From Candidatus Parcubacteria bacterium (GTDB lineage Bacteria; Patescibacteriota; Patescibacteriia; UBA1558; GWA2-36-10), in assembly GCA_018669975.1 (NCBI GenBank), contig JABHSK010000001.1:24394-88393 (forward strand): a stretch of DNA of 64,000 nt, read 5' to 3'. Below, in pieces: positions 1,430 to 61,106 of the stretch. A program made the position numbers and the translations under genes. Under the pieces are notes generated by a model. It searched no databases. It was not told the DNA's origin and saw only the letters and a list, made by a program, of their open reading frames with translations. The stretch's first letter is position 1. Every line of letters begins with the position of its first letter.

Positions 1430-2530
1430 TTACCCTACTAAGGAATATCTTCCTTTAGGGTCTTTTTGAAAACGGTCTTTGTTCATTAGGGCTAGACCAA
1501 TAGTAGTTTCTTTGATCATGCGCTTTTTTAGAACTTCCTCAATAATTTCTTTTTTAGATAATGCTCTGTCTCCAGCGTTCAGGATTTCTACAATAACATC
1601 ACTGACTACGCCTGGTTTATAACCCCATTCTTTTAGGGCATAAATGCCGCGACCGACTAAGACATATTTTTTATCTAGAATTAATTCATTGTGTATTGTA
1701 GCCGGGAAAGCTTTACGATGATCGAATTCCATCTTATTGATAGTATCAGCGATCTCAGTAAAATGCATTGGCTTATTTTCTTTCCTTAAGACCAAATAGA
1801 TTTTATCATTCATACGCTTTGGCGTAATATCTGACCATCCGACTAAGCCCCATTCATCATATGGGTTAGCTTCTAGCTTTTTGGTGATATAGATAAAGTT
1901 TACAATTACCTTATCAGTTAAATCTTCATTGCTAGTATAAAACTCAGCAGATTCGATTTTATCTAAAAGAGTATCTAAACCTAAGGGTTCACCATGATTA
2001 TCAATCAAGCTATGTAATTGTTCAATGACATCTTCAAAAGTATTTGTAGAAGCTTCTGGTGTTTTCCAAAAACCATAAGTATGTTTTGATTCCTTAACAA
2101 AATGAAAGCGCTCTTTCAATAGTTGATTTAAGATGAACTTAATAGCTGCACGATTATGTATACTGTCTCCAGGAATGATCAAGAGTTCCTTGGTCATATT
2201 TTCCTCAGACATCATACCACCGTGCTCTGAAAGCACACCATTAGAAATATCTTCTAATTGCTTCAAATATGTTTGATCAAAATTCTTAGTGATCTTCTTC
2301 AGAGAGCTATTTTCAATCTGTCTGACTCTTTCTCTAGTGACACTGTACTTTTTACCTATATCTTCAAGCGTACGTCTTTCATTGTCACCAAGACCGTGGC
2401 GCATACGAATAATTTCCTGCTCACGTTCTGATAGAGCCTCCAAAATACTTTCCAGTATCTGATGTGGATTGAAACTCTCCAAATTTGATTGGTGTTTGGA
2501 TGTGATTACTTGGTCTAAGATTGACTCCAT
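1430..2530 (-). CDS. Sigma-70 region-4 (HTH) domain fused to a C-terminal HARE-HTH-like winged-helix domain; probably RNAP-associated, function unknown.
   Basis: The N-terminus ([15 protein letters not shown]...[20 protein letters not shown]) matches the sigma-70 region 4.2 signature. The C-terminus ([11 protein letters not shown]...[14 protein letters not shown]) resembles the HARE-HTH fold of RpoE delta-subunit N-termini. Confidence 0.55.
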
Positions 2531-2714: not shown

Positions 2715-3617
2715 TTACTTTTTCCTATTCCAGATAACAAGTAGTGGTGAGGCCACAAATATTGAAGAATAAGTACCAATTATAACACCCAAAATGAGGG
2801 CTAAGACAAAATTCTTGATACTCTCCCCCCCAAATATGTATATAGCTAGTAAAACAAACAAGGTAGTAATAGAGGTGTTCAATGATCTAACTATTGTTTG
2901 ATTTACACTGATATTTACTATTTCTTTAAAAGGTTTGTCTTGGTTTTTAAACAAGTTTTCACGTGTTCTGTCAAAGGTAACAATAGTATCATGAATAGAA
3001 AAACCTAAGATAGTCAACAAAGCGGTTACAAATAGACTGTCTACCTCCATTTTCATAAAGTATCCCAAAGCAGCAAAAATACCTGTAATAATTAAAATAT
3101 CATGCGTTAAGGCTATAATTGCTGAAATACCATACTTCCAAGAAGCAACTGGCTTAGATATTTTTCTAAAAGCATAGGCAATGTAGAAAACAATGAATAG
3201 GAGTACTATAATAATAGACTTAATAGCTTTAGATTTTAATTCACTACCAATAACTGGCCCAACAGATTCAAAGCGATTTTCAACTACCGTATTTTCTTCT
3301 AGACCCTCAATCTGTATTTCGCCTAATTTACTAACCACAGTCTGGTGAGTTGCTTCATCTATTTCTTCAAAACGAATGATATATTCTCTATCACCACTAG
3401 GTTGAACCTTTACAGTCTGTAAATCTACATCCGCCAAAGACTCCTCTATTTGTTGAATGCTTGGTCGTTGATTCTGGTATGAAACCTCCAATAAGCTACC
3501 ACCTGTAAAGTCTATACCTAGGCGTAAACCCCAGGTTAGTAAAGAAACGATAGCTGCTAGAACTAAAATGCCTGAAAAGGTAAACCAAACTTTTCTTTTT
3601 TCAATAATGTTATACAT
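2715..3617 (-). CDS. secF: Protein translocase subunit SecF.
   Basis: 300 aa with six TM segments and the SecD/SecF C-terminal pattern; lies directly downstream of secD. Confidence 0.85.
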   Translation of the reverse strand: MYNIIEKRKVWFTFSGILVLAAIVSLLTWGLRLGIDFTGGSLLEVSYQNQRPSIQQIEESLADVDLQTVKVQPSGDREYIIRFEEIDEATHQTVVSKLGEIQIEGLEENTVVENRFESVGPVIGSELKSKAIKSIIIVLLFIVFYIAYAFRKISKPVASWKYGISAIIALTHDILIITGIFAALGYFMKMEVDSLFVTALLTILGFSIHDTIVTFDRTRENLFKNQDKPFKEIVNISVNQTIVRSLNTSITTLFVLLAIYIFGGESIKNFVLALILGVIIGTYSSIFVASPLLVIWNRKK

Positions 3618-3621
3618 ATAT

Positions 3622-5310
3622 TTATTCTTTGTGTGTTTTATTTACTCCAAATAAGGCTAATTTGCCTTCTAATTTTTTACTAACGATCATTCTTAAGAAA
3701 GTTCTAGTAACAGTAATGGCTGAAAACATAGACATTAGAATACCGATAGCTAAGGTAATAGCAAAACCTTTAATGATGGATGTGCCAAACCAAGCCAATA
3801 TTATACAAGTAATAATAGAGGATATATTTGAGTCACGGATAGAAGGCCAAGCTCTAGTAAAACCATTTTCTATAGATGTATGTAAGCTCTTACCATTATA
3901 AAGTTCTTCTTTAGTCCTTTCAAATATCAATATATTAGCATCTACAGCCATACCAATGGATAATATGAATCCGGCTACACCGGCTAAAGTCATGGTTACA
4001 GGAATTAATTCAAAGATTGCTAAAGTTAAAATAGTGTAAATTGCTAAAGAAATCACTGATAGCAAGCCAGGTAAACGATAGAAAGCTAACATAAATAGAG
4101 CTGCTGCAATCAGTCCAATAATACCTGCTAATAAGCTTTTTTCAACAGAAGTCTCGCCTAAAGTAGCACCAACAGTCTGTTGACTGATCAATTCAATAGG
4201 CACTGGTAAAGCACCTAGATTAAGATCTTTCACTAATTGCTTAGCTTCAGTAATATTGAAGTTGCCAGAAATTTGAGCACTACCATCTTTGATTGGCTCC
4301 TGAACTACAGGACTAGACCTAAGTAGGCCATCTAAAAATATACCAATCGGCTCACCGACATGGTCAGCAGTTAATTGAGCAAATAGTTCTTTACCGTCAT
4401 CATTAAAACGCAGTAACACCAATGGTTCTTGAGTAGTATTATCAAAACTTAATTGGGCTTTTTTAATATCTTTACCACTTAAACCAGTATCATCCCAGGT
4501 TATATTCAATAAGTCAGCGTCTGGTCTTCTGAACAAGATATGAGCTGATCGTACCTCTATGACACCTGCTTCATTTATTCTTTCGTCTACTTTTTTAATA
4601 ACATGATAACCAAATTGTGACTCAATTAATTCGGATGATATTTCACCTTTAGTTAGGTTATCAAAAATAGCTTGATCAAATTCTGGTACAAATTTACCTC
4701 TTTCAGTCCAGTCTAAATCACCCCCATTAATAGCTGAAGTAGGATCCTCACTGTATTCTTGTGCTAAAGTAGTGAAATCTTCACCAGCTAAGGCTCTCTT
4801 TAGAATTTCTTGAGCAGCCTGCTCGATTTCATCTATTACTCCGAGTTCTTCAATTTCCTCAGTAATAGGCTCACCCTGCGTCCTAAAATCTAGCATTGGA
4901 GTACGATCTATCATTGCGATAGCCTCATTGGTATCTTGAACACCTGCTAACTCAACGATAATTCGGTAATTTTCACCACTATAGTTAGTCTGAATTACTG
5001 GTTCAGACACACCGTAGGCATTAACCCTTCTTTCAATAACATCTCTAAGAGCTTCAACACCATCTTTCTTTTCCTCTCCCTCTAGGGCAGACACATCAGC
5101 TTGGTAGACCAAATGGGTGCCACCTTGTAAATCCAAACCTAAATGAATGTAAAATTTACCAAACCAATCATTGGCTGCACCTAAAAAGTTTACCCTAGGT
5201 GAAACAATTAAGATGGCAAAGATGGTCAACAAAAAAATAGTGGCAAAACTGGTTCTAATTTTCCCAGCTGTGACACGTTCTTTGTTGCTTAATTTACTGT
5301 ATTTGTTCAT
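3622..5310 (-). CDS. secD: Protein translocase subunit SecD with a parvulin (PpiC)-like domain inserted in the periplasmic P1 head.
   Basis: Conserved SecD blocks are present (LGLDLQGG, MLDFRTQ, MAVDANILIFERTKEEL, KGFAITLAIGI). Residues about 158-262 align with the PpiC signature (GEDFTTLAQEYSED...GGDLDWTERGKFVPEFDQAIF...FGYHVIKK, then SAHILF). Confidence 0.85.
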   Translation of the reverse strand: MNKYSKLSNKERVTAGKIRTSFATIFLLTIFAILIVSPRVNFLGAANDWFGKFYIHLGLDLQGGTHLVYQADVSALEGEEKKDGVEALRDVIERRVNAYGVSEPVIQTNYSGENYRIIVELAGVQDTNEAIAMIDRTPMLDFRTQGEPITEEIEELGVIDEIEQAAQEILKRALAGEDFTTLAQEYSEDPTSAINGGDLDWTERGKFVPEFDQAIFDNLTKGEISSELIESQFGYHVIKKVDERINEAGVIEVRSAHILFRRPDADLLNITWDDTGLSGKDIKKAQLSFDNTTQEPLVLLRFNDDGKELFAQLTADHVGEPIGIFLDGLLRSSPVVQEPIKDGSAQISGNFNITEAKQLVKDLNLGALPVPIELISQQTVGATLGETSVEKSLLAGIIGLIAAALFMLAFYRLPGLLSVISLAIYTILTLAIFELIPVTMTLAGVAGFILSIGMAVDANILIFERTKEELYNGKSLHTSIENGFTRAWPSIRDSNISSIITCIILAWFGTSIIKGFAITLAIGILMSMFSAITVTRTFLRMIVSKKLEGKLALFGVNKTHKE

Positions 5311-10688: not shown

Positions 10689-12425
10689 TTATTTATTTTT
10701 AGGATAAACCTCTTTATCTTTTTTACTAAAACTAGTATGACAGGTTAAGTGAACATTATCATGATCTTTTAGAAAATCCTTGTAAAGCGCTTTTACAAAA
10801 GCACTCTCTTCGGCCATACGAATTTTATTCCTACTATCCACATTATAAAGTCCCTCAGCTCGTTTTTTACGTATCTCATCATTAACTGGCATTGGTTGTC
10901 CACCACCACCAATACAACCACCAAAACAAGCCATCATTTCTACATAATCATAAGCCTTGGGGTCTTTTTTTAATTCCTCTAGTATTTTTTTAGCATTTGC
11001 AGCACCATTAACTACGCCGACTTTAAGTGGCTTACCGTCTATATCTATGGTAGCTTTTTTACAACCCTCGAGTCCCCTGACTTCTTCTAAATCTAAACGA
11101 GGTAATTTTTTGCCAGTAATCTTATTGTAGGCGGTTCTTAAAGCAGATTCCATTACCCCACCAGAGGCTCCGTAGATAACTCCAGCGCCGGTTGGTGCTC
11201 CTAAAAATGGATCTGGAGTAACTGCTTTAACATTTTTAAGATCGATTTTATGTTTTTTTAGTAACTGAGCAAATTCTCTAGTAGTTAATACATGATCCAC
11301 GGGTTTAATATCACCCATGAGCACTTCTGGACGCTCTATTTCATATTTTTTGGCGACACAAGGCATTATAGAGACTACTACTATGTCCTTGGGGTCGATT
11401 TTGTTCTCCTGTGCCCAGTAAGTCTTAATTAGACCACCCATTATAACTTGTGGTGATCTAACACTGGTTAAATGCGGTATAAATTCTGGATAATAAAATT
11501 CTAAATATTTAACCCAACCAGGACAACAAGAGGTAAACATTGGCATAGTTCCACCCTTCTCAATTCTTTCTATAAGTTCTTTAGCTTCCTCAACAGTTGT
11601 CACATCGGCTCCAACTGATACGTCAAAGACGTGTTTAATACCTAATTGCTTAATAGCTGCTGTTAGTCTACCGGTAACAATAGAGCCGTACGGCATATCA
11701 AATTCTTCCCCGATAGTACTTCTAATAGACGGTGCAAATTGAAAGACTACTGTTTTACCCTCTTCTTTTAGCTTGAGTGGATTGTCTATATCTTCAAACT
11801 CACCCACACCCTCAAAAGCACCCACTGGACAATGTGTGATACATTGTCCGCAATAAATACAATCCTTATATTTATCTTTGGAAGGCATAACTTCATGAAA
11901 TTTACCAACCTTTTCATACTCAAGGAAACAAGCGCCAACCTTTTCACAAATATCTACACAAATACCGCAATCAATGCATTTACTACTGTCAAAAATTAAT
12001 GCTGGACCAAATTCATGAACTGGCTTTCCTTTTTTACGATCCGGAAATTTAGTAATCTTAACATCGTATTTTTTAGCTAGGTCTTTGATATGACAACCAT
12101 AACGATAGACACAATCGCTGCACTCCTCACAGTGCTCAGTAAAAATAAGTTCCAGGTTAATTTTTTTAGCCCTGGAGATTGATTCTGAATGAGTAGTAAC
12201 CTCCATACCGTCAGATGCTTGTGTGCTACAGGACGTGAATAAACCCTTTTTATCTTTTATTTCCACCAAACATAAACGACAACTAGCCTGCACTTTGACA
12301 TCTGGATGATGACATAGGGTGGTAATACGAATTTTATTTTTTCGAGCCACATCTAAAATACTTTGCCCTTCTTTGGCTTTGTATAGTTTTCCGTCTATTT
12401 TAATGGATATATTTTTTTGTTTCAT
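10689..12425 (-). CDS. hydA: [FeFe]-hydrogenase catalytic subunit (HydA-type) with an N-terminal 2Fe-2S ferredoxin domain and 4Fe-4S domains.
   Basis: H-cluster motifs are present: TSCCPGW (L1), MPCVAKK (L2) and MACFGGCIGGGGQP (L3). N-terminal Cys clusters are also present. Confidence 0.85.
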   Translation of the reverse strand: MKQKNISIKIDGKLYKAKEGQSILDVARKNKIRITTLCHHPDVKVQASCRLCLVEIKDKKGLFTSCSTQASDGMEVTTHSESISRAKKINLELIFTEHCEECSDCVYRYGCHIKDLAKKYDVKITKFPDRKKGKPVHEFGPALIFDSSKCIDCGICVDICEKVGACFLEYEKVGKFHEVMPSKDKYKDCIYCGQCITHCPVGAFEGVGEFEDIDNPLKLKEEGKTVVFQFAPSIRSTIGEEFDMPYGSIVTGRLTAAIKQLGIKHVFDVSVGADVTTVEEAKELIERIEKGGTMPMFTSCCPGWVKYLEFYYPEFIPHLTSVRSPQVIMGGLIKTYWAQENKIDPKDIVVVSIMPCVAKKYEIERPEVLMGDIKPVDHVLTTREFAQLLKKHKIDLKNVKAVTPDPFLGAPTGAGVIYGASGGVMESALRTAYNKITGKKLPRLDLEEVRGLEGCKKATIDIDGKPLKVGVVNGAANAKKILEELKKDPKAYDYVEMMACFGGCIGGGGQPMPVNDEIRKKRAEGLYNVDSRNKIRMAEESAFVKALYKDFLKDHDNVHLTCHTSFSKKDKEVYPKNK

Positions 12426-13507
12426 TTTAGTTTTAATATTTTTTCACTTAATCCCTTAAAAGGTGGAACTACCATCTTACCTAGCGCACAAAAAGATGTG
12501 TTTTCCAAAACAAAAAGTAAATCATCCAAAACAACTTTATCAATTTGCTTATTTTTTATCATTTCATTAAGTCTATAGGTGCCCTCACGACATGGTGTAC
12601 ACTTGTCGCAATTTTCTTCCATAAAAAAATCAATCCATCGCTTCATCAAAACATAGGGATCTGTTTTTTTTAAATCATAAACAATAATAGCTCCTGAACC
12701 ACCTGCTGGTTGATCTAATTCGCTAGATAAAAAAATATCCCCGCTAGCACCCCCACCTACCTGCACAAAAAAGTCATCGGTTGGCATATTTTTACTCTTT
12801 TTGAGTACATCTTTGATGGTTAATACCAGTGGCAATTCGTAAACACCGGGATTCTTAACGTCTCCACTAACAGTAAACAAACGAGTATTCTTGTACTCAC
12901 CCTGGGCTATCTTAGCTGCATAATAAAAAGTTTCGATATTATTTATCAAAGTAGGGTAACCACAAATACCAGCTTGTCCTGGAAAAGGTGGTTTAAGGCG
13001 TGGCCTGTGCATCTTATTTTCTATTTCCTGACAGACAACTGTTTCTTCTCCAGATAAATAACCGCCTTTTTCTTTAAAAACTTTAATAGGTAGTTTACCA
13101 ATCATCTTTTCTAGAGTGGCCTTATATTTTTTATAATAATCTTTCCGCAAATAAATATAGGCTTCGCTATGGTCAATATAATCCAAAGCAAGTTTAATGC
13201 CATCAATTAAATCCTGAGGATAATTAGCAACAATATAGCCATCCTTATCTGTGGCTGGCTCACCTTCTGAACCATTGGCAACAATATACTTGGTATCTGC
13301 TTTGGCTTTTTTTACCATTTCCCACTTGAGATAAGCTGGAAAAGCTGCGCCACCTCTACCAAGTAAGTTAGCATCTTTTAATTTTGTGATAATATCTTTA
13401 ATCATATACTTTAATGCAGTATATATTTTAGCATATTTTACGTTTTTTTGGAAAATAAAAAAGGGACCATGATTGGTCCCCAAGATCTGTATTTGATTAG
13501 ATTTCAA
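12422..13507 (-). CDS. NuoF-like (51 kDa) flavoprotein subunit, the hydrogenase NAD(P)-binding partner (HydB/HndC-like).
   Basis: GRGGAAFP, SGEETVVCQ and a C-terminal 4Fe-4S motif CDKCTPCREGT. Confidence 0.75.
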   Translation of the reverse strand: MKSNQIQILGTNHGPFFIFQKNVKYAKIYTALKYMIKDIITKLKDANLLGRGGAAFPAYLKWEMVKKAKADTKYIVANGSEGEPATDKDGYIVANYPQDLIDGIKLALDYIDHSEAYIYLRKDYYKKYKATLEKMIGKLPIKVFKEKGGYLSGEETVVCQEIENKMHRPRLKPPFPGQAGICGYPTLINNIETFYYAAKIAQGEYKNTRLFTVSGDVKNPGVYELPLVLTIKDVLKKSKNMPTDDFFVQVGGGASGDIFLSSELDQPAGGSGAIIVYDLKKTDPYVLMKRWIDFFMEENCDKCTPCREGTYRLNEMIKNKQIDKVVLDDLLFVLENTSFCALGKMVVPPFKGLSEKILKLK

Positions 13508-53501: not shown

Positions 53502-54497
53502 CTACTTGCCACCCTTGCCGTTGAGGTTCATGAGCCAACCGGACCCGTCGGGCATGATATTGGCCGGCAAGGAGCCGTTCCACTTCTCAGCCGCGATCTT
53601 CTGGGCCTCGGCCTGGATCTTCTGGATATCCAGCTCACGGACCATGATGGCCGCGTCCTGTGCCCGAGCAAACTCCTCGGCCGCTTTACGTGAAGCAGTA
53701 GCCGTGGCTACGGTCTGCTTGTTGAGCTCATCCTGTGCCAGCTTATTCTGAGCTGCAGTCTGGACGCTGAGTTCAGCCAGGAACCGGTTGTTGATACCGG
53801 TCTGGATCTCCTCGTCCTCGTAGATCAGCCCCTCGGCGTAACCAAGGTTGTCGATAGTAATACCGGTCTCCTTGAAATGCTCACGAGTAGCGGCGTAGAC
53901 GCGATCAAAGATCTCGGCTTTGGCACCGCGACCGTCAACCAACTCCAGGGAGCCGAACTCCCGAGAGAGAATCGAGGTGACGTAACCACGCACGTTCTCA
54001 TCGACCACAGCCGACAAAGGCTTACCGGCGTACCAGTACAAGAAAGTCGCCGCGTCGTCCTCACGAACGAAGGAGGTGATATTGACGCCGATGGCGAAAC
54101 CGATGGACTCCTTGGACTCGACATGGATGGCTTCGTTGGCATTCGAGGTGCCGCTGGCGCTATCCTGCGTCCATTCACGAGTAACGGGTTTGCGATCAAC
54201 CTTGATCACGCGCACCGTCGGAATCCATTCAAAATTCCAACTGCGACGACCATTCTTCCTCTTACGCAGAGGAATAGTGACTCGCTTGGCCGCGACCTTG
54301 GCGTCCTCCAGGAAATCCACGGACATGAACTTGCCCTGGGTATCCATGTTGGCGCCTTCCATCGGCACCACGAAAGCAGTTTCGTTGGTGTCGATCTCTT
54401 CGACCACTTCGACTTCGGCCGGACCCCTGCAGCCAGTAAAGGCAAACATGGCGATCAGGCCAACGACGATCAGAGACAGGTACTTGAAATTCTTCAT
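53502..54497 (-). CDS. SPFH/band-7 (stomatin/flotillin-like) domain lipoprotein; high-GC gene.
   Basis: Lipobox AFTGC. The SPFH core (GFAIGVNITSFVRED...VRGYVTSILSREFG...ETGITIDNLGY) is followed by an Ala/Gln-rich coiled coil. SD GAGGAGG. About 57% GC. Confidence 0.6.
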   Translation of the reverse strand: MKNFKYLSLIVVGLIAMFAFTGCRGPAEVEVVEEIDTNETAFVVPMEGANMDTQGKFMSVDFLEDAKVAAKRVTIPLRKRKNGRRSWNFEWIPTVRVIKVDRKPVTREWTQDSASGTSNANEAIHVESKESIGFAIGVNITSFVREDDAATFLYWYAGKPLSAVVDENVRGYVTSILSREFGSLELVDGRGAKAEIFDRVYAATREHFKETGITIDNLGYAEGLIYEDEEIQTGINNRFLAELSVQTAAQNKLAQDELNKQTVATATASRKAAEEFARAQDAAIMVRELDIQKIQAEAQKIAAEKWNGSLPANIMPDGSGWLMNLNGKGGK

Positions 54498-54587
54498 TCT
54501 GTTTCCTCCTCAAGAGGTTCTGAAAGGTTTGAAACGGTTTTGAAACACGATATTCGTGAACAAATATACTAGCAGAGAAAAATAGAA

Positions 54588-54887
54588 CTACTCGTTACTA
54601 TCCGGGGCACTGTTGTACCTACCCAACTTGACCACATACGGAATCCAGGTCAAACCCAGCAGAATAAATCCTGCCCAGTTGATCATGCGTGGGATGGCAT
54701 GCAGTGCGACAGCGCGGCCGGCGACATAGTCGACATCACTGTTGTTGAGCTGCTTGACCGCAACTCCGGCCTCGATGGGACCCTGCGAAGCATTGTAGAC
54801 CTGAATGGTCACAATCCACAGAATCACAAAGATAATTGTGAAAATCATCCTGGCCTTGAAATTGGGCCTACCGATCATCTTACTCAT
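54588..54887 (-). CDS. Small two-TM membrane protein co-transcribed upstream of the SPFH gene (NfeD-position partner).
   Basis: The start is placed at the internal ATG (MSKMIGRP...) because SD AAGGAGG lies 6 nt upstream. Two hydrophobic helices. Confidence 0.5.
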   Translation of the reverse strand: MSKMIGRPNFKARMIFTIIFVILWIVTIQVYNASQGPIEAGVAVKQLNNSDVDYVAGRAVALHAIPRMINWAGFILLGLTWIPYVVKLGRYNSAPDSNE

Positions 54888-55102
54888 GTTTTGCCTCCTT
54901 AATGGCAAATGGTGATTGATTGGGAAACAACGATTTTACCGAATCTATTTTAAATCCTTGCGTTCAAGGCAGTAAAAAAATATACACGATAATAACAGAC
55001 TACATTAGCATAATACCTTGATTTTGTCAAGTATTAAGCTAAAAACCTTAAAAAAATAGGTAAATAAAAAGGACTCCAATTTGGAGCCCCTAATCTGATA
55101 GT

Positions 55103-55741
55103 TTAGCTATCAAGACTAAAGCTTTTCTCTGGCATACCAGGACAAGTGCCTCGCGGACCGAGAGTAGCCATAAAAACAAGGTTGCTCTGCCAGCTAATAT
55201 CACCCAATTCGGAAGCTATTTCCATAGCCATGGGAAGCAAATCAGCCTCTGGCAACACTGACAAAGTGATATGTGGTACAAACGTATCCATGGTCAATGG
55301 ATTACCCCATTTGGCCAAGTTTTTACGCCGAGCAGCACCTATATCAACTTCGCCTGTTAGACAGCCGGAATGTAAGCCAGTGATAAAATCCTGACGAAGT
55401 TCATTGATATCTTTGACCAGTTGGCGATGAATTCCCAACAACGCATCAGTCATATTTACATTCCAAAAAATAGCATTACCAGGATACTCACTGACACCAC
55501 TAAGGGTTAATTCGAGAGGCTTTTTACCCCAAAATGTTCTTTCCATGACAGAATCAACCGCAACTATATTTTCTACTGGAAAAGCAAATTGATGAATAGT
55601 AATGTGCGGAATAGCACTTTCCTCACTGAGGACTAAATCACTACCATGGGCAGCAATTTTTCTACTAACATCAATGGCTATTTGCCTGATTTCTTCAGGC
55701 GGAATAATCACTATGTTGCAGCTTAAAACTCTGGGAAACAT
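55103..55741 (-). CDS. 2H-phosphoesterase superfamily protein (LigT / 2'-5' RNA ligase / cyclic-phosphodiesterase-like).
   Basis: Two H-x-T/S-x motifs (HITIHQ and HITLSV) spaced as in LigT; SD GAGGTG. Confidence 0.6.
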   Translation of the reverse strand: MFPRVLSCNIVIIPPEEIRQIAIDVSRKIAAHGSDLVLSEESAIPHITIHQFAFPVENIVAVDSVMERTFWGKKPLELTLSGVSEYPGNAIFWNVNMTDALLGIHRQLVKDINELRQDFITGLHSGCLTGEVDIGAARRKNLAKWGNPLTMDTFVPHITLSVLPEADLLPMAMEIASELGDISWQSNLVFMATLGPRGTCPGMPEKSFSLDS

Positions 55742-55895
55742 GAGCCACCTCTTTCTTGTAGGGTTTAAGGTTCAGAAAAAATACATATTAAATTAACATA
55801 AAATACTTATTTATGTCAATGAGCATTGACAAATCATGAAACATGTGTTAGTTTCAAAATGTTTACAATTGAATATCTAACAATGAAGCAATGAA

Positions 55896-56007
55896 CGACT
55901 GTCTATATTTGGACGCTTGGATAGTCGGGAGCTAGTAGCGTAACCGGCATTGGCAATAAATTTAATTTGCTTATTTTGTCGGAGACGCCTACCTTAGGTG
56001 TTTTTTT
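55896..56007 (+). ncRNA. Structured RNA element, copy 1: conserved 51-nt core flanked by a covarying 5-bp helix, then an intrinsic terminator. Candidate riboswitch or sRNA.
   Basis: The core at 55901-55951 is identical to copy 2 except for a 5-nt block. Helix cgact(55896-900)/agtcg(55923-27). Terminator hairpin 55984-56002 plus T7. Confidence 0.5.
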
Positions 56008-56051
56008 AGTATAAGTACCTTATAAAATAAGTAAAATGATGAGGTGTTGAA

Positions 56052-56160
56052 CCATAGTCTATATTTGGACGCTTGGATTATGGGGAGCTAGTAGCGTAAC
56101 CGGCATTAAGCTGGTTTTAGGTACAAACAAAACACCTCATTTTTCGAAGGTGTTTTTTGA
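56052..56160 (+). ncRNA. Structured RNA element, copy 2: same core plus a P1/terminator switching platform.
   Basis: Core 56057-56107. Helix ccata(56052-56)/tatgg(56079-83). The stretch gaggtgtt (56041-48) is complementary to aacacctc (56131-38). That same stretch also pairs with aggtgtt (56148-54), which is followed by a T-run. Confidence 0.5.
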
Positions 56161-56184
56161 TAGTCACATCATGGAGGTGCAACA

Positions 56185-56625
56185 TTGGCTAGAATCGCTG
56201 TTTTTGATACGACCTATACTTCTATACGAACCATCTATTATGCCCTAGAGGGTGAAGGACATCAAGTAGTAACTAATGTTTTCCCAGAAAAAGTTTATGG
56301 GAAATTAGTTATGAAAATGGTAACTGACCCCCTTAGTTTGGTGACTAAAATTTTGACCCCCAGACTGGTTGATGGACAAGTCGTAAGACCTATCCCTGAT
56401 GTTTTCATCATAGATTTTCTTAATCTAGATGGTGAAAAAATAGCCAGCATACTCAAGCAAATACATAGTACTAGATCTGTACCAGTAATTGCCTTGAGTC
56501 ATAAAGGGAAAAATATAGATCGTCAAAAGTTACTTCAACTCTACGGCACTCACTATATTCCTAAACCATTTAATGTGTGGAATGTGGTTGATCACGTGGA
56601 AACTTTCCTAGGTGTCACTTGCTAG
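56185..56625 (+). CDS. Standalone receiver (REC/CheY-like) domain protein.
   Basis: TTG start with SD GGAGGTG. Beta3 acceptor Asp (VFIIDF), beta4 Ser (IALSH), beta5 Lys (IPKPF). Confidence 0.5.
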   Translation: MARIAVFDTTYTSIRTIYYALEGEGHQVVTNVFPEKVYGKLVMKMVTDPLSLVTKILTPRLVDGQVVRPIPDVFIIDFLNLDGEKIASILKQIHSTRSVPVIALSHKGKNIDRQKLLQLYGTHYIPKPFNVWNVVDHVETFLGVTC

Positions 56626-56667
56626 TGGCTGGGGGGGGGAACTAAAACCTAGGAAAGGAGGCACATA

Positions 56668-56733
56668 ATGGAAATTATGACGATCGTCATGGGTCTGTCC
56701 CTGATCGATCTCTTTTGGTGGCTGAGGAAATAA
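56668..56733 (+). CDS. 21-aa hydrophobic peptide MEIMTIVMGLSLIDLFWWLRK (type I toxin-like or small membrane peptide).
   Basis: Strong SD AAGGAGG 7 nt upstream. Single TM-length hydrophobic stretch with a basic C-terminus. A paralog lies at 56934-56999. Confidence 0.45.
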   Translation: MEIMTIVMGLSLIDLFWWLRK

Positions 56734-56835
56734 TCTCAGCAAATCGTTAATGATGTCTAGAATAGAAGTTGAAACTATCAATATCTGAGTAGCATCATTC
56801 GGATGCTACCAATCGCCTGTCTATCGACAGGCCGA

Positions 56836-56878
56836 GGGACTCGTCACTGCATAATTCCCCCCAGTGCATACGAGTCCC
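56836..56878 (+). other. Conserved compound hairpin downstream of peptide 1 (copy A).
   Basis: gggactcgtcactgc...cagtgcatacgagtccc. A 13-nt block GACTCGTCACTGC is shared with copy B. Confidence 0.5.
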
Positions 56879-56933
56879 TTTCGATATTTACTGGAGGATG
56901 CTAATCGCTTATATTGAAAGTGAGGTGAAAACT

Positions 56934-56999
56934 ATGGCTTTCGAGGTTATTCTCATCGCTATTGGCGTTGCGGATATCTTCTGGTGGCTGCGTAAGTAG
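56934..56999 (+). CDS. 21-aa hydrophobic peptide MAFEVILIAIGVADIFWWLRK (paralog).
   Basis: SD GAGGTGA. Shares the C-terminal D[LI]FWWLRK with the first peptide. Followed by a conserved hairpin plus T7 terminator. Confidence 0.45.
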   Translation: MAFEVILIAIGVADIFWWLRK

Positions 57000-57068
57000 C
57001 TACCAAGATAGCAACTAGTATCTTCAATTAATATTTATACAGATAGTGCCGCCCGGGTACTATTGTCA

Positions 57069-57117
57069 GAGACTCGTCACTGCCCATTTCCTCCAGTGCA
57101 TACGGGTCTCTTTTTTT
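57069..57117 (+). terminator. Conserved compound hairpin (copy B) plus T7: intrinsic terminator after peptide 2.
   Basis: gagactcgtcactgc...cagtgcatacgggtctc followed by ttttttt. Confidence 0.6.
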
Positions 57118-57156
57118 AAAACAAAAAATCGGATATTACTACCCGATTTTTATAAA

Positions 57157-57921
57157 TTATTTTTCAATCACTGAACCCGAACCAGATATCTTTTGAATAA
57201 CTGTGGCCTTACCACTGTATTCCACATCACCACTACCTTCTATATTTACATCCAAATCCATTTCTGCGACTACCTTAACACTTCCTGAGCCTTCGATATT
57301 TACAGACGTACTATCTGTAGCTAGAGCAGCAGCCTTGATATCACCTGAACCTTCGATATTAGTAGAATGCCTAATAGTTGAACCCTTGAGATTCATCTCT
57401 CCAGAACCAGCGATTGTTGAATCCAATTCTTTTACATCTAGATCTAGCTCAACATAACCTGAACCGTTAATACGTAAATCTAAATTCTCGGTAGTCAGTG
57501 GAGTTTCACCAATTATACTACCAGAACCATTGATAGTTAAATTATCTATATCTGGAATCGTTACATAAACATTAACTGACACAAAACTAATTGTTAGAGG
57601 TTTAAGAGAAACTCTCAGGGTACCATCCCTGACCTCAACTATTAATTTCTCCATAATCTTTTCGTCAGCATCCACCTTTACTAACTGCTCTTCTCCTTGA
57701 GATATGTATAGATTACCAGCTACATCAAAATCAACTCTAGAAAATTCTTCTAATTCAAATTCTTCTGATATTATCTTACCGGTGCCAAAGAAATTCTCCT
57801 TAGAAAATATATCCTTAACTTCATCTTCTAGGCCATTTCTACCAATATACAAACCAACAAAAAATACAGCCACTACCACTATCAACCATAGTAAACCGCT
57901 TCCTTTTTGATTTTTTAGCAT
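57157..57921 (-). CDS. Membrane-anchored GIN-domain (DUF2807, putative adhesin head) repeat protein.
   Basis: N-terminal TM helix. The motif I-x-GSG-x-V/I repeats about eight times (INGSGSI, INGSGYV, IAGSGEM, IEGSGDI, IEGSGSV, IEGSGDV, ISGSGSV). Confidence 0.55.
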   Translation of the reverse strand: MLKNQKGSGLLWLIVVVAVFFVGLYIGRNGLEDEVKDIFSKENFFGTGKIISEEFELEEFSRVDFDVAGNLYISQGEEQLVKVDADEKIMEKLIVEVRDGTLRVSLKPLTISFVSVNVYVTIPDIDNLTINGSGSIIGETPLTTENLDLRINGSGYVELDLDVKELDSTIAGSGEMNLKGSTIRHSTNIEGSGDIKAAALATDSTSVNIEGSGSVKVVAEMDLDVNIEGSGDVEYSGKATVIQKISGSGSVIEK

Positions 57922-58065
57922 AGTTTAAAACATTAATTTATTAATACATGTATTTTAACATTTTTTTGACATAAATTAAAATACTTAGATAATATTGACT
58001 AAATTAATAAATCATACTAATATGCATGGTCGTATTTGGAACCTTAAAACTCAAGGAGGAAAAAG

Positions 58066-58704
58066 ATGAGTCCTGAGAGGATATCAGTAATAATTCAACA
58101 AAAGATTGAAGCCTATGATCCCAGTGGAAATCTTGACCACACTGCTCGCTTGATTCTTGCCCTAATGTCTCTTAGACACTCCCGAACTAAATTACATGTC
58201 GAACGTGTAGCCCTGATGGCTGAAGAAGTGGCCTCTGATATGGGTAAAGATGCTCGGCAAGCTTTTTTTAGCGGACTACTGCATGACATCGGCAAGCTAG
58301 TCTTGCCCTACCACCTATTTGCTGATCAATCAATCACTGATGATGAATTTTCTGAAATTACCAGCCACGCTGCAGCCGGACACAAAGTCCTAGAACCATT
58401 CCATCTCTATACCGCGCTAGTAGCTGGCATTCATCATCGTGCTCAAGACCGTGGCTACGGTCTAACACTAACAGACTTCCCAGAAGACATGCCTTTGTCG
58501 CAGGTCAAGAAAGTTCTCAATATTGCCGTCATAGTCGGCGTCTGTGATTTTATTGATGCCTGGCAAAACCGTGGTGACACCCTCCGTGATGGACGTAAAA
58601 AAACAGACCTTGATTTACGCAGTCTGCTTCTGGAAAAATATCCCGATGATAGCCAAGTTGTTGACTTGGCCCTAGTAGCTGCGGACAAAGTCCGTACCAT
58701 CTGA
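58066..58704 (+). CDS. HD-domain phosphohydrolase, HD-GYP-like (divergent: HDIGK ... HHRAQDRGYG).
   Basis: HD motif LLHDIGKLVLPYHL and a second metal-binding block GIHHRAQDRGYG, which resembles the HHExxDGxGYP block of c-di-GMP HD-GYP phosphodiesterases. SD AAGGAGG. About 50% GC. Confidence 0.5.
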   Translation: MSPERISVIIQQKIEAYDPSGNLDHTARLILALMSLRHSRTKLHVERVALMAEEVASDMGKDARQAFFSGLLHDIGKLVLPYHLFADQSITDDEFSEITSHAAAGHKVLEPFHLYTALVAGIHHRAQDRGYGLTLTDFPEDMPLSQVKKVLNIAVIVGVCDFIDAWQNRGDTLRDGRKKTDLDLRSLLLEKYPDDSQVVDLALVAADKVRTI

Positions 58705-58710
58705 TATATG

Positions 58711-58738
58711 GACCTACTCTCTGAGTGGGTCTTTTTTT
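58711..58738 (+). terminator. Intrinsic terminator of the HD-GYP-like gene (gacctactc tct gagtgggtc plus T7).
   Basis: 9-bp stem with one G·U pair and a U-tract. Confidence 0.65.
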
Positions 58739-58863
58739 ATAAAATAAAAAGGACTGACAAGGTCAGTCCCGTATAATCGCTAATCACCAAAAATTTTCAC
58801 ATAAGGTCTTATTGTCAATTAAATAAAAAATAAAAAACTGAGCTTTAGGCTCAGATTTTTTGA

Positions 58864-58873
58864 TGGCTCGGGG
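58864..58873 (-). other. Orphan 10-nt copy of the tRNA-Gln 3' end (…CCCCGAGCCA), a possible recombination or attachment-site remnant.
   Basis: tggctcgggg is identical to the 3'-terminal 10 nt of both tRNA-Gln genes. No complete cloverleaf can be drawn. Confidence 0.35.
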
Positions 58874-58975
58874 CGCTGGACTATTGTCCAGCATCTTAGG
58901 TCGCTCCTATCGGATCATTGTTTGTGGTTTTGAACCAAAAATAAAAACCCGAACAAAAGTTCAGATTCTTATTTT

Positions 58976-59049
58976 TGGCTCGGGGACAGGGGCTCGAACC
59001 CCGATTGCCTGGACCAAAACCAGGTGTCCTACCATTAGACGATCCCCGA
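58976..59049 (-). tRNA. tRNA-Gln (anticodon UUG). Identical to the copy at 15363-15436 except for anticodon position 34.
   Basis: Same 74-nt sequence with ccaGaacc changed to ccaAaacc on the plus strand, giving anticodon loop TTTTGGT. Confidence 0.85.
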
Positions 59050-59158
59050 ACAAGGAAAATACGCAACAATAATACTATATTTTACTACTTATGTCAACTA
59101 TATAAAATTAAATTTCCCCCGCTGGATTAGAACCACACGAGGGAAATATTTACGGAGC

Positions 59159-59434
59159 CTAGCCCCGAAGTTGGCGCCTTGCCCTCTCCAGATCAGCTGC
59201 CCGCTGCGCCCTTAATTCGTCCCTTCTAAGGTCGAATTGCTCCCTCGAAGGAAGGAGGTGCGTAGTGGGTAGCTCTGGAAGAGAACGACACGCTTCCGGA
59301 AGAATAGGCCTTGACCCTCTTGGGTCAGGAAGCACTCTACGCACTTCCGGGAGCCTAGGAGACTTTTCTGACAAGCCTCTAAGCTGCTGCCTAGCTTCCG
59401 AAAAACTAGCAATGAACCTTGACCACCAAGCCAT
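59159..59434 (-). CDS. Putative 91-aa Arg/Leu/Pro-rich ORF in a GC-rich spacer. A real protein and a non-coding transcript cannot be told apart.
   Basis: Upstream TTGACA, 17-nt spacer, TTATAT promoter. SD AAAGGAGG 4 nt before the ATG. Downstream hairpin (atttccc/gggaaat). The encoded sequence is low-complexity. Confidence 0.25.
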   Translation of the reverse strand: MAWWSRFIASFSEARQQLRGLSEKSPRLPEVRRVLPDPRGSRPILPEACRSLPELPTTHLLPSREQFDLRRDELRAQRAADLERARRQLRG

Positions 59435-59600
59435 GTTGCCTCCTTTAAATATTTATCAACTACTTGGGAATTTGATCAGCATCATATATAAACATATTGC
59501 CTAATCTTTGTCAATGGTTATTGCCTTTTAAAATTACTGTGTTAAGCTGTAAAATGTTAGTCCCCAACCGACAATGTACTTTAAAAGAAAGGATTAAGTT

Positions 59601-60947: not shown

Positions 60948-61106
60948 ATAGGTCATCAAGACCATCCCCTCGGGGATGGGTTTTTATTAATAAAAAACCC
61001 GCCAAGGAAAGGACCTGCTTTGAAAAGAGCCGAGTATCCGAACTAGTGTCCGGCGGTCTTTCATTAGCAATGATCACAGTCTCAGCGGGCAATCCCTATA
61101 AAGGAG

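What the first reader, a model, noticed from the sequence alone, without database searches (positions are those of the whole stretch)
4525..4839. Parvulin (PpiC)-type PPIase-like domain inserted in the periplasmic head of SecD
Residues about 158-262 of SecD align convincingly with the parvulin signature (GEDFTTLAQEYSED…GGDLDWTERGKFVPEFDQAIF…FGYHVIKK, then SAHILF). All canonical SecD blocks are present on either side. A translocon subunit with a built-in folding-catalyst domain would couple secretion to periplasmic folding. This may compensate for absent SurA/PrsA chaperones in a minimal genome.
Basis: partly seen in the sequence, partly recalled or inferred. Interest (0 to 1): 0.55.

Follow-up and report, generated by a model that had tools for sequence, protein, structure and literature searches.

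The report
Parvulin foldase domain built into SecD
The SecD subunit of this Patescibacteria (CPR) bacterium's protein-export machine carries a complete but circularly permuted prolyl-isomerase folding domain on its outer face, a conserved arrangement I found described in no paper, which ties protein folding physically to secretion.

Summary
SecD (window 3622-5310, minus strand, 562 aa) contains a parvulin PPIase domain at residues 158-262. Pfam scores are PF13616 E=3.7e-23 and PF00639 E=1.7e-20, both above gathering. Canonical SecD blocks lie on both sides and secF follows.

New points:
- The domain is circularly permuted. The His-bearing beta1 strand (EVRSAHILF) follows beta4 instead of opening the domain.
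- It sits in the naturally variable connector between the P1 base strand and the P1 head, held by two hypervariable linkers that model poorly in the full-length prediction.
- The Pin1-equivalent catalytic and pocket residues (H257, D189, H236, S187, L199, F207, F211) are invariant or nearly so in 65 homologues.
- The architecture is widespread in Patescibacteria. A two-parvulin form and SecDF-fused forms also exist.
- Eight full-text searches found no paper describing it.

The most likely function is a translocon-tethered foldase or chaperone acting on emerging secretory proteins. That would be a covalent version of the PrsA, PpiD or SurA partnership with SecDF. Catalysis, the orientation of the domain, and the "compensates for missing PrsA/SurA" idea remain untested. 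I rate it a new variant of known kinds, of moderate to good interest.

The parts
3622..5310 (-). secD CDS (562 aa, including stop): TM1, P1 domain with parvulin insertion, TM2-6
   Evidence: ORF list. TIGR01129 387.7 bits against cutoff 244.4. Pfam blocks. Foldseek of the AF2 model hits SecDF 5xan/5xap/3aqp at E about 1e-24.
5203..5268 (-). TM1 (residues 15-36)
   Evidence: AF2 helix H15-36. Hydrophobic sequence AGKIRTSFATIFLLTIFAILIV. The topology is inferred from the SecDF family.
4879..5055 (-). P1 base, N-terminal part (SecD_1st PF21760, residues 86-144), ending in the base strand TPMLDFRT
   Evidence: Pfam E=1.4e-18. Aligns to T. thermophilus SecDF 32-122.
4840..4866 (-). N-side linker (residues 149-157, ITEEIEELG), hypervariable
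   Evidence: pLDDT below 50 for 150-157 in the full-length model. Mean majority-residue frequency is 0.25, against 0.70-0.82 in the domains.
4573..4839 (-). Parvulin core alpha1-alpha2-alpha3-beta2-alpha4-beta3-beta4 (residues 158-246). Contains S187, D189 (Pin1 C113 position), L199, F207, F211, F233 and H236 (Pin1 H157 position).
   Evidence: PF13616/PF00639 match to profile positions 35-114/116 and 16-95/97 only. AF2 elements H158-174, H179-186, H190-193, E198-203, H209-218, E229-231, E234-245 with block pLDDT 81-90. Residue conservation.
4561..4572 (-). beta4-to-beta1 hairpin loop (residues 247-250, EAGV). Homologues carry long inserts at this site.
   Evidence: AF2. P0119 and P0129 have loops of 30-55 aa here.
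4528..4560 (-). Permuted parvulin beta1 strand (residues 251-261, IEVRSAHILFR) with invariant H257 (Pin1 H59 position)
   Evidence: AF2 strand E251-261 (block pLDDT 86-90) and E106-116 in the isolated-domain model (block pLDDT 93-97). The de-permutation test restores a full-length Pfam match. H257 is invariant in 65/65. It aligns with beta1 of SurA P2, VTEVHARHILLK.
4504..4527 (-). C-side linker (residues 262-269, RPDADLLN), variable
   Evidence: pLDDT below 50 at 266-268. Majority-residue frequency 0.43.
4201..4488 (-). P1 head subdomain (PF22599, residues 275-370)
   Evidence: Pfam E=8e-27, profile positions 19-114/114. Aligns to T. thermophilus SecDF from residue 160 onward.
3685..4197 (-). 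TM2-TM6 (SecD_SecF_C PF02355, residues 372-542), with D457 in GMAVDANIL
   Evidence: Pfam. Alignment to TtSecDF ...GAAVDGNVL.... D457 is invariant. The proton-relay role of this Asp comes from memory of the TtSecDF literature.
2715..3617 (-). secF (300 aa), starting 4 nt after the secD stop; partner subunit
   Evidence: PF02355 E=1e-57 and Sec_GG. 4-nt gap. secD-secF adjacency is kept in 15 of 18 related loci; in 2 the locus ends inside secD and in L023 secF lies upstream.

Best explanation
This is a functional SecD whose extracytoplasmic P1 domain has gained a complete, circularly permuted parvulin (PpiC/PrsA/SurA-type) domain. The chain leaves the P1 base after the strand TPMLDFRT and crosses a short hypervariable linker. 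It enters the parvulin at helix alpha1 and runs through alpha2, alpha3, beta2, alpha4, beta3 and beta4. It then turns back in a hairpin to supply the missing beta1 strand (EVRSAHILF), and returns through a second linker into the first strand of the P1 head. The new termini therefore lie where canonical parvulins have the beta1-alpha1 loop, next to the active site. The whole module hangs at the hinge about which the head swings during the proton-driven SecDF cycle. Shown here: the domain's identity, the permuted order, the position of the insertion, conservation of the catalytic and proline-pocket residues, and wide conservation of the architecture in Patescibacteria. Inferred: the tethered parvulin binds unfolded stretches of secretory proteins as they leave SecYEG and are handled by the P1 head. 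There it would catalyse prolyl cis/trans isomerisation and/or hold the chain, promoting folding and preventing back-sliding. That would make it an in-cis equivalent of PrsA, PpiD or SurA working with SecDF.
For: - Domain identity: Pfam E=3.7e-23 and 1.7e-20. PDB sequence hits to SurA and PrsA at E 1e-19 to 1e-13. The isolated-domain AF2 model has pLDDT 89.5 and pTM 0.81. Its best Foldseek PDB hits are parvulin PPIases: 8hm3/8hm4 (TM 0.68-0.71, rmsd 2.1-2.9 A) and the PrsA structures 5htf and 5tvl.
- Permutation: the Pfam profiles match only from alpha1 onward. The AF2 element order is a1-a2-a3-b2-a4-b3-b4-b1. The alignment with SurA runs from the P1 core straight into beta1 of P2. Moving residues 247-264 to the front gives a full-length PF00639 match (profile 1-95/97, 83.0 bits). 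The native order scores 78.3 bits, the core alone 78.8, and a reversed-strand control 78.2.
- Active site: H257, H236, D189 and S187 are invariant in 65/65 homologues. L199 (62/65), F207 (63/65) and F211 (61/65) are nearly invariant.
- Constraint: the parvulin core is as conserved as the P1 head (0.70 against 0.71 majority-residue frequency), while the linkers are hypervariable (0.25 and 0.43).
- Site: the insertion falls in the T. thermophilus SecDF 123-159 connector. That connector varies from about 2 to 45 aa in SecDs without an insertion.
- Intact motor: TIGR01129 is above cutoff, D457 is invariant, and secF is adjacent.
- Breadth: all 120 top homologues carry the domain. 83 of the best 150 cluster representatives have both a parvulin core and a head hit, and more are fragments. 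18 species-representative genomes have it.
- Functional precedent: AlphaFold models place the SurA parvulin domains on the SecDF P1 head (PMC9987972). PpiD/YfgM acts at SecYEG (PMC9643414). PrsA-like PPIases form a dome complex with SecDF in Mycoplasma (10.1101/2025.04.25.650208 and 10.1101/2024.09.05.611430).
Against: - No biochemical or genetic data exist for any member.
The position of the parvulin relative to the head, the SecY exit and the membrane is therefore unknown.
- Conserved His residues do not prove catalysis. From general knowledge, they are partly structural in Pin1, and the parvulin domains of PpiD and SurA P1 are inactive yet useful.
- Some family members have degenerate parvulins lacking the beta4 His (7 of 64 single-core representatives, and the first copy in all 19 two-core forms). 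PPIase chemistry is therefore not universally required.
- The score gain in the de-permutation test is modest (3-5 bits).
Confidence: 0.65

Rival explanations
1. The inserted parvulin is a non-catalytic chaperone or holdase, or a substrate-docking module like the PpiD parvulin domain or SurA P1. It binds emerging chains, or hands them to other factors, without meaningful prolyl-isomerase activity.
For: Degenerate copies lacking the catalytic His are common in the wider family: 0/19 first cores in the two-parvulin forms have it, and several single forms such as P0140 and P0170 lack it too. This shows the fold is retained without the chemistry. Known translocon-associated parvulins can be inactive (PMC9643414 and general knowledge).
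Against: In the window's clade every catalytic-position residue (H257, H236, D189, S187) is invariant across 65 sequences down to 56% identity. The proline-pocket residues are nearly invariant. In two-parvulin forms one copy always keeps both His (18/19). This suggests selection for at least one active site per SecD.
Confidence: 0.2
2. The module is mainly structural or regulatory for the machine itself. It could modulate or lock the P1 head swing at the hinge. It could instead mediate contacts with SecYEG, YidC, SecF P4, the cell wall or an S-layer, rather than acting on secretory substrates.
For: It is placed exactly in one of the base-head connectors, where bulk could influence head rotation. 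The relative orientation is unresolved (pTM 0.48).
Against: The two tethers are hypervariable in sequence and length and have low confidence in the full-length model. That fits a loosely tethered module better than a rigid mechanical element. Conservation concentrates on the substrate-binding and catalytic cleft rather than on a distinct surface patch. Long unrelated inserts are tolerated in the beta4-beta1 loop.
Confidence: 0.1
3. The finding is an artefact: a chimeric assembly, a fused gene call, or a chance motif match.
For: None found.
Against: The ORF is a single uninterrupted reading frame. The identical protein occurs on 5 contigs from several sources, and hundreds of orthologues in independent assemblies share the architecture. 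E-values are 1e-20 to 1e-24.
Confidence: 0.01

Closest known systems
Canonical SecD/SecDF (Thermus thermophilus SecDF, PDB 3AQP/5XAN/5YHF)
   Same: It has the same 6-TM RND-like half-transporter with a P1 base and head. The GG motif, the conserved TM Asp (D457) and a SecF partner are all present. Sequence E=6.6e-66 and Foldseek E about 1e-24 to 3aqp/5xan.
   Different: About 105 aa of parvulin plus linkers replace the short base-to-head connector (TtSecDF 123-159). SecD and SecF are separate genes here.
PrsA (Bacillus/Listeria lipoprotein foldase)
   Same: The parvulin is of the non-phospho-specific bacterial type. PrsA families give the best NCBIfam scores for the insert (PRK03095 and PRK02998, 56.8 and 56.6 bits), although SurA structures give the lowest PDB sequence E-values. 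Foldseek hits include 5htf and 5tvl. Like PrsA, it is an extracytoplasmic, membrane-tethered folding catalyst for Sec substrates.
   Different: There is no N/C chaperone (dimerisation) domain and no lipobox. The tether is SecD itself, and the strand order is circularly permuted. The PrsA equivalog cutoffs are far from met (55 against 361 bits).
SurA and its proposed docking on SecDF (Troman et al. 2023, PMC9987972)
   Same: The SurA parvulin domains give the lowest PDB sequence E-values (1.5e-19). AlphaFold models in that paper place the SurA P1/P2 parvulin domains on the SecDF P1 head. This is the same pairing that is covalent here.
   Different: SurA is a soluble periplasmic protein with a chaperone core, and its interaction with SecDF is transient. 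Here there is a single domain fused in cis. The host probably lacks an outer-membrane protein pathway.
PpiD/YfgM at the SecYEG translocon (PMC9643414)
   Same: It is a membrane-anchored protein with a parvulin fold, positioned at the translocon exit to receive emerging chains.
   Different: PpiD is a separate single-pass protein with an inactive parvulin and a chaperone domain, and it binds SecY rather than being part of SecD.
Mycoplasma pneumoniae dome complex (Mdp444/436/489 with SecDF; 10.1101/2025.04.25.650208 and 10.1101/2024.09.05.611430)
   Same: A genome-reduced bacterium physically couples PrsA-like parvulin PPIases to SecDF and SecYEG in a near-obligate way.
   Different: That assembly is non-covalent and made of large lipoproteins forming a dome. 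It is not a domain insertion in SecD, and the two are unrelated in sequence beyond the parvulin fold.

Membership tests
SecD (TIGR01129 / PF21760 + PF22599 + PF02355) | Profile match above the curated cutoff across the whole SecD domain set | tested here: met
   TIGR01129 scores 387.7 bits against cutoff 244.4, covering model positions 1-397. Sec_GG, SecD_1st, P1_head and SecD_SecF_C are all above gathering.
SecD (TIGR01129 / PF21760 + PF22599 + PF02355) | SecDF-like three-dimensional fold: TM1, P1 base and head, and a 5-TM bundle | tested here: met
   The AF2 model (pLDDT 79.5) hits SecDF structures 5xan/5xap/5yhf/3aqp at E 1e-21 to 1e-25.
SecD (TIGR01129 / PF21760 + PF22599 + PF02355) | Conserved TM Asp of the proton pathway, and an adjacent SecF partner | tested here: met
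   D457 in GMAVDANIL aligns to TtSecDF GAAVDGNVL and is invariant in 65 homologues. secF begins 4 nt downstream. The functional role of this Asp is from memory of the literature.
SecD (TIGR01129 / PF21760 + PF22599 + PF02355) | PMF-dependent stimulation of protein export | not testable with these tools
   This requires genetics or biochemistry.
Parvulin PPIase (PF00639 / PF13616) | Profile match above the gathering score | tested here: met
   PF13616 scores 82.7 bits (cutoff 22.5) and PF00639 scores 74.2 bits (cutoff 21.7).
Parvulin PPIase (PF00639 / PF13616) | Canonical element order beta1-alpha1-alpha2-alpha3-beta2-alpha4-beta3-beta4 | tested here: not met
   The profile matches start only at alpha1 (positions 16/97 and 35/116). 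beta1 (EVRSAHILF) follows beta4. The AF2 element order and the de-permutation test agree. All the fold elements are present but circularly permuted.
Parvulin PPIase (PF00639 / PF13616) | Active-site residues (Pin1 H59, C113 or Asp, H157) and the proline pocket (L122, M130, F134) | tested here: met
   H257, D189 and H236 are invariant. L199, F207 and F211 are present in 61-63 of 65. F233 occupies the Pin1 S154 position, as in E. coli PpiC.
Parvulin PPIase (PF00639 / PF13616) | Parvulin-like three-dimensional fold | tested here: met
Parvulin PPIase (PF00639 / PF13616) | Measured prolyl cis/trans isomerase activity | not testable with these tools
   This requires an enzyme assay.
PrsA foldase (NCBIfam NF002846 / NF002827) | Equivalog score above cutoff, meaning the parvulin is embedded in the N/C chaperone domain of a lipoprotein | tested here: not met
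   55.3 bits against cutoff 361, and 49.0 bits against cutoff 343. Only the parvulin part aligns. It works like PrsA but is not a member.
SurA (NCBIfam NF008038) | Equivalog score above cutoff (N-domain, two parvulins and a C-tail) | tested here: not met
   49.7 bits against cutoff 394. Only one parvulin-length stretch aligns.

The most novel reading that the evidence does not exclude
The parvulin hangs on the hinge of the proton-driven P1 head. It could therefore be mechanically coupled to the SecDF power stroke. Each PMF-driven head swing would present, isomerise and release the emerging chain. That would make this SecD an energy-coupled extracytoplasmic foldase and ratchet, in a compartment with no ATP. 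The two-parvulin forms, with one active domain nested in a degenerate permuted one, would be elaborations of the same device. The permutation itself would have been selected to point the active-site loop toward the SecD substrate path.
Probability: 0.12. Interest if true: 0.85.

Novelty: new variant of a known kind. Interest (0 to 1): 0.6.

Why it matters
How unfolded proteins leaving SecYEG are handed to extracytoplasmic folding factors is still being worked out, and so is what the mobile SecDF P1 head actually does with them. The current evidence comes from PpiD/YfgM, SurA-SecDF models and the Mycoplasma dome complex.

A natural, widely conserved covalent fusion of a parvulin to the SecD hinge is "Rosetta-stone" evidence that parvulin folding factors and the SecDF P1 domain work on the same substrate at the same place. 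It offers a minimal single-polypeptide system for studying that coupling structurally and biochemically.

It also appears to be the first noted circularly permuted parvulin. Nested two-domain relatives document how such permutants can arise. Finally, it is a lineage marker and a clue to envelope proteostasis in the largely uncultivated, genome-reduced Patescibacteria.

Tried and rejected
- Foldseek with the full-length model returned only SecDF and RND pumps and said nothing about the insert. I therefore modelled the insert alone.
- The listing of cluster members gave an organism name for only one of ten divergent representatives (Ca. Peribacterales).
62 of the 80 loci kept were ordinary stand-alone parvulins of other phyla. 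Several SecD-parvulin loci are labelled "uncultured Gammaproteobacteria" or "Bdellovibrionales". I reject the label for L006, which shares 53-78% identical flanking genes and synteny with the window. L007 and L010 share weaker synteny. L008, L009, L011, L013, L015 and L025 match only SecD and SecF, so their labels are unresolved. I found no convincing non-Patescibacteria example, though one hit is labelled Ca. Bipolaricaulota.
- A quick neighbour-joining tree of SecD cores, without the insert, intermixed the insertion-less, one-parvulin and two-parvulin forms. With no support values, I draw no conclusion on which form is ancestral.
- Eight full-text searches found no description of a SecD-parvulin fusion or of a permuted parvulin (and a check of PMC4508563). 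Subscription-only papers are not covered.
- The "compensates for missing PrsA/SurA" idea could not be tested, because only 64 kb of the roughly 844-kb contig is available. tblastn with the insert finds no second parvulin in the window.
Full report
**1. What is there.**
The finding lies in a 562-aa ORF on the minus strand (3622..5310). A 300-aa ORF (2715..3617) follows it after 4 nt. Pfam and NCBIfam identify them as SecD and SecF:
- SecD: TIGR01129 387.7 bits against cutoff 244.4, plus Sec_GG, SecD_1st (86-144), SecDF_P1_head (275-370) and SecD_SecF_C (372-542).
- SecF: PF02355 E=1e-57.

Coordinates 4525-4839 are exactly residues 158-262. The window has about 35% GC. Its identical SecD is annotated in public data as from a "Candidatus Parcubacteria bacterium" on an 844,504-bp contig. 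The neighbours are D-Ala-D-Ala ligase, a beta-propeller protein, UppS and a sigma70_r4/HARE-HTH protein.

**2.
- Between SecD_1st and the P1 head, the protein matches Rotamase_3 (PF13616, E=3.7e-23, 82.7 bits) and Rotamase (PF00639, E=1.7e-20, 74.2 bits). Both are far above gathering.
- The excised segment hits SurA and PrsA structures at E=1e-19 to 1e-13.
- All 120 listed homologues, down to 55% identity, carry the same precomputed Pfam set. They are named Parcubacteria, Komeilibacteria, Nomurabacteria or "Patescibacteria group".
- The gene is therefore not a chimera, and the match is not chance.

**3. The domain is circularly permuted.**
- Both Pfam profiles match only from helix alpha1 onward (profile positions 35-114/116 and 16-95/97). 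The N-terminal beta1 strand, which carries the first catalytic-site His (xxHILV), is missing in front.
- A strand of exactly that type, EVRSAHILF, follows beta4 (FGYHVIKK) after a 4-5-residue turn.
- phmmer aligns the insert colinearly with the E. coli SurA P1 core, running straight into beta1 of SurA P2 (VTEVHARHILLK).
- AlphaFold2 on a 65-sequence alignment gives the element order a1(158-174), a2(179-186), a3(190-193), b2(198-203), a4(209-218), b3(229-231), b4(234-245), b1(251-261), with block pLDDT of 81-90.
- The insert modelled alone is a compact domain (pLDDT 89.5, pTM 0.81). The last strand lies in blocks with mean pLDDT 93-97.
- Its best Foldseek PDB matches are parvulin PPIases: 8hm3/8hm4 (TM 0.68-0.71, rmsd 2.1-2.9 A) and the PrsA structures 5htf and 5tvl.
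- As a sequence test I moved residues 247-264 in front of 152-246. PF00639 then matches profile positions 1-95/97 at 83.0 bits. The native order scores 78.3 bits, the core alone 78.8, and a reversed-strand control 78.2. PF13616 rises from 86.6 to 89.6 bits, with coverage extending from position 35 back to position 16. The gain is small, but it is specific and restores full-length coverage.
- I could not inspect coordinates, so packing of the strand between beta4 and beta2 is inferred.

**4. Where it is inserted.**
- Against T. thermophilus SecDF, residues 54-149 align to 32-122 and residues 277-543 align to 160-426.
- In an alignment with SecDs lacking the insert, the parvulin occupies the connector between the base strand TPxLEF[KR] and the head start [FW]..T.L[ST]G. 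That connector is naturally variable, from about 2 to 45 aa.
- The module therefore hangs on one of the base-head hinge connectors, not inside the head fold.
- The two tethers (149-157 and 262-269) have pLDDT below 50 over 150-157 and 266-268 in the full-length model. They are hypervariable, with majority-residue frequencies of 0.25 and 0.43, against 0.70 for the parvulin core and 0.71 for the head.
- The new chain ends lie where canonical parvulins have the beta1-alpha1 loop. In Pin1 that is the phosphate-binding loop beside the active site (general knowledge). It is absent here, so the domain is of the non-phospho-specific bacterial type.

**5. The active site is conserved.**
Counts come from the 65-sequence alignment.

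| Residue here | Pin1 position | Conservation |
|---|---|---|
| H257 | H59 | 65/65 |
| S187 | S111 | 65/65 |
| D189 | C113 (Asp in PrsA and Par14) | 65/65 |
| L199 | L122 | 62/65 |
| F207 | M130 | 63/65 |
| F211 | F134 | 61/65 |
| F233 | S154 (Phe in PpiC) | 56/65 |
| H236 | H157 | 65/65 |

The SecD motor also looks intact: D457 in GMAVDANIL is invariant.

**6. A large, varied family.**
- An exhaustive phmmer search with the P1-plus-insert region against 1.84 billion cluster representatives found 204 proteins at E<=1e-30.
- Home-made HMMs for the base, parvulin core, beta1, head and TM regions show that 83 of the best 150 have both a parvulin core and a head hit. Further hits are fragments.
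- Type 1 is the window's form: about 550-590 aa, with one active core followed by a His-bearing beta1.
- Type 2 is about 650-700 aa, or 1015-1119 aa when fused to SecF. Its order is a degenerate core (beta4 His in 0/19), an "ASHILI" strand (His in 18/19), an active core with FGYHII (18/19), a mostly degenerate last strand (His in 3/19), and then the head.
- The simplest reading of Type 2 is a canonical active parvulin nested in the beta4-to-beta1 loop of a degenerate permuted one. That same loop carries 30-55-aa inserts in some Type 1 proteins (P0119, P0129).
- Type 2 is very common and is named Kuenenbacteria, Falkowbacteria, Parcubacteria or Patescibacteria. One representative is from Ca. 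Peribacterales.
The other 62 loci kept were ordinary stand-alone parvulins of other phyla.
- Several SecD-parvulin loci carry "uncultured Gammaproteobacteria" or "Bdellovibrionales" labels. L006 shares the window's gene order at 53-78% identity, so its label is unreliable. L007 and L010 share weaker synteny. L008, L009, L011, L013, L015 and L025 match only SecD and SecF, so their labels are unresolved.
- A crude NJ tree intermixes the types and does not settle which is ancestral.

**7. How it most likely works.**
- Established knowledge, summarised in 10.1101/2025.04.25.650208: the SecDF P1 head captures the preprotein emerging from SecYEG and swings about its hinge, powered by proton flow, to pull the chain out.
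- Parvulin-type factors are already known or proposed to work at this spot. PpiD/YfgM acts at SecY (PMC9643414). AlphaFold places the SurA parvulin domains on the SecDF P1 head (PMC9987972). PrsA-like PPIases form a near-obligate dome with SecDF in Mycoplasma.
- Here the partnership is covalent. I infer that a loosely tethered parvulin with an intact active site at the hinge binds emerging unfolded segments. It would then catalyse prolyl isomerisation and/or hold them, promoting folding and acting as a ratchet.
- Shown: identity, topology, position and conservation. Inferred: substrate, catalysis and coupling.

**8. Comparison and novelty.**
- The protein is a bona fide SecD. Its insert is a bona fide parvulin by profile, predicted fold and active-site residues, but it fails the canonical strand-order criterion because it is a permutant.
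- It is not a PrsA or SurA family member. Scores are 49-55 bits against cutoffs of 343-394, and it has no chaperone domain or lipobox.
- No NCBIfam model is specific to this architecture. Databases call the protein simply "SecD".
- Eight full-text searches and one targeted read found no paper describing a SecD-parvulin fusion or a permuted parvulin. The library lacks most subscription journals.
- I class it as a new variant of known kinds.

**9.
- "Couples secretion to folding" is the best-supported inference but remains untested.
- "Compensates for absent SurA/PrsA" could not be tested. No second parvulin lies in the 64-kb window, and the rest of the genome is not available. At least one Patescibacteria MAG has a stand-alone 373-aa parvulin protein (L046), so the phylum does not uniformly lack them.

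**10. Verdict.**
Interest is 0.6.

Noticed in passing
window 55875-55958 and 56031-56114 (+), upstream of ORF 56185-56625 (+): Two tandem c-di-GMP-II riboswitch aptamers (Rfam RF01786, 67.3 and 62.4 bits, both above gathering) sit directly upstream of a 146-aa ORF. That ORF has only a weak receiver-domain hit (24.9 bits, below cutoff). An HD-domain protein lies nearby at 58066-58704. Tandem c-di-GMP riboswitches in a genome-reduced Patescibacteria bacterium may deserve their own look.
   Followed up: partly
window about 54000-62000: This stretch has a higher GC content (0.43-0.44 in three of the four 2-kb windows and 0.37 in 56-58 kb, against about 0.35 elsewhere). It contains the riboswitches, a tRNA (58979-59049), a DUF2807 adhesin-head protein, a 2'-5' RNA ligase-like protein and a fused SAICAR synthetase/AIR carboxylase. 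It could be an island or simply a compositional difference.
   Followed up: no
related proteins P0124, P0133, P0135, P0141, P0145, P0147 and others: A very common second SecD architecture in Patescibacteria has two parvulin modules: a degenerate core (no beta4 His, 0/19), a His-bearing beta1 strand (18/19), an active core (18/19) and a degenerate last strand (His 3/19). This suggests a canonical active parvulin nested in the beta4-beta1 loop of a degenerate permuted one. SecDF single-chain fusions of 1015-1119 aa carry the same insert.
   Followed up: partly
loci L006-L011, L013, L015, L025 (genome contigs): Some MAG records are titled "uncultured Gammaproteobacteria" or "Bdellovibrionales" bacterium. 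L006 carries SecD-parvulin genes in the same gene order as this Parcubacteria window, with 53-78% identical neighbours, so its label looks wrong. L007 and L010 share weaker synteny. L008, L009, L011, L013, L015 and L025 match only SecD and SecF.
   Followed up: partly
window 1430-2530 (-), and L002, L004-L007, L010, L022, L030: A 366-aa protein combining Sigma70_r4 and a HARE-HTH domain lies immediately downstream of secF. This position is conserved in several related genomes. Upstream, the order beta-propeller protein (PF09826), Ddl, secD is conserved in the closest relatives.
   Followed up: partly
window 10689-13507 (-): An [FeFe]-hydrogenase large-subunit-like protein (578 aa, PF02906 E=6.9e-90, with ferredoxin-type domains) lies next to a NuoF-like flavoprotein (361 aa). 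This suggests a bifurcating-type hydrogenase module in this small genome.
   Followed up: no
L046 (Patescibacteria group bacterium STC_93), ORF 1847-2965: This locus encodes a stand-alone 373-aa parvulin-domain protein in a Patescibacteria MAG. The phylum therefore does not uniformly lack PrsA-like proteins, which bears on the "compensation" idea.
   Followed up: no
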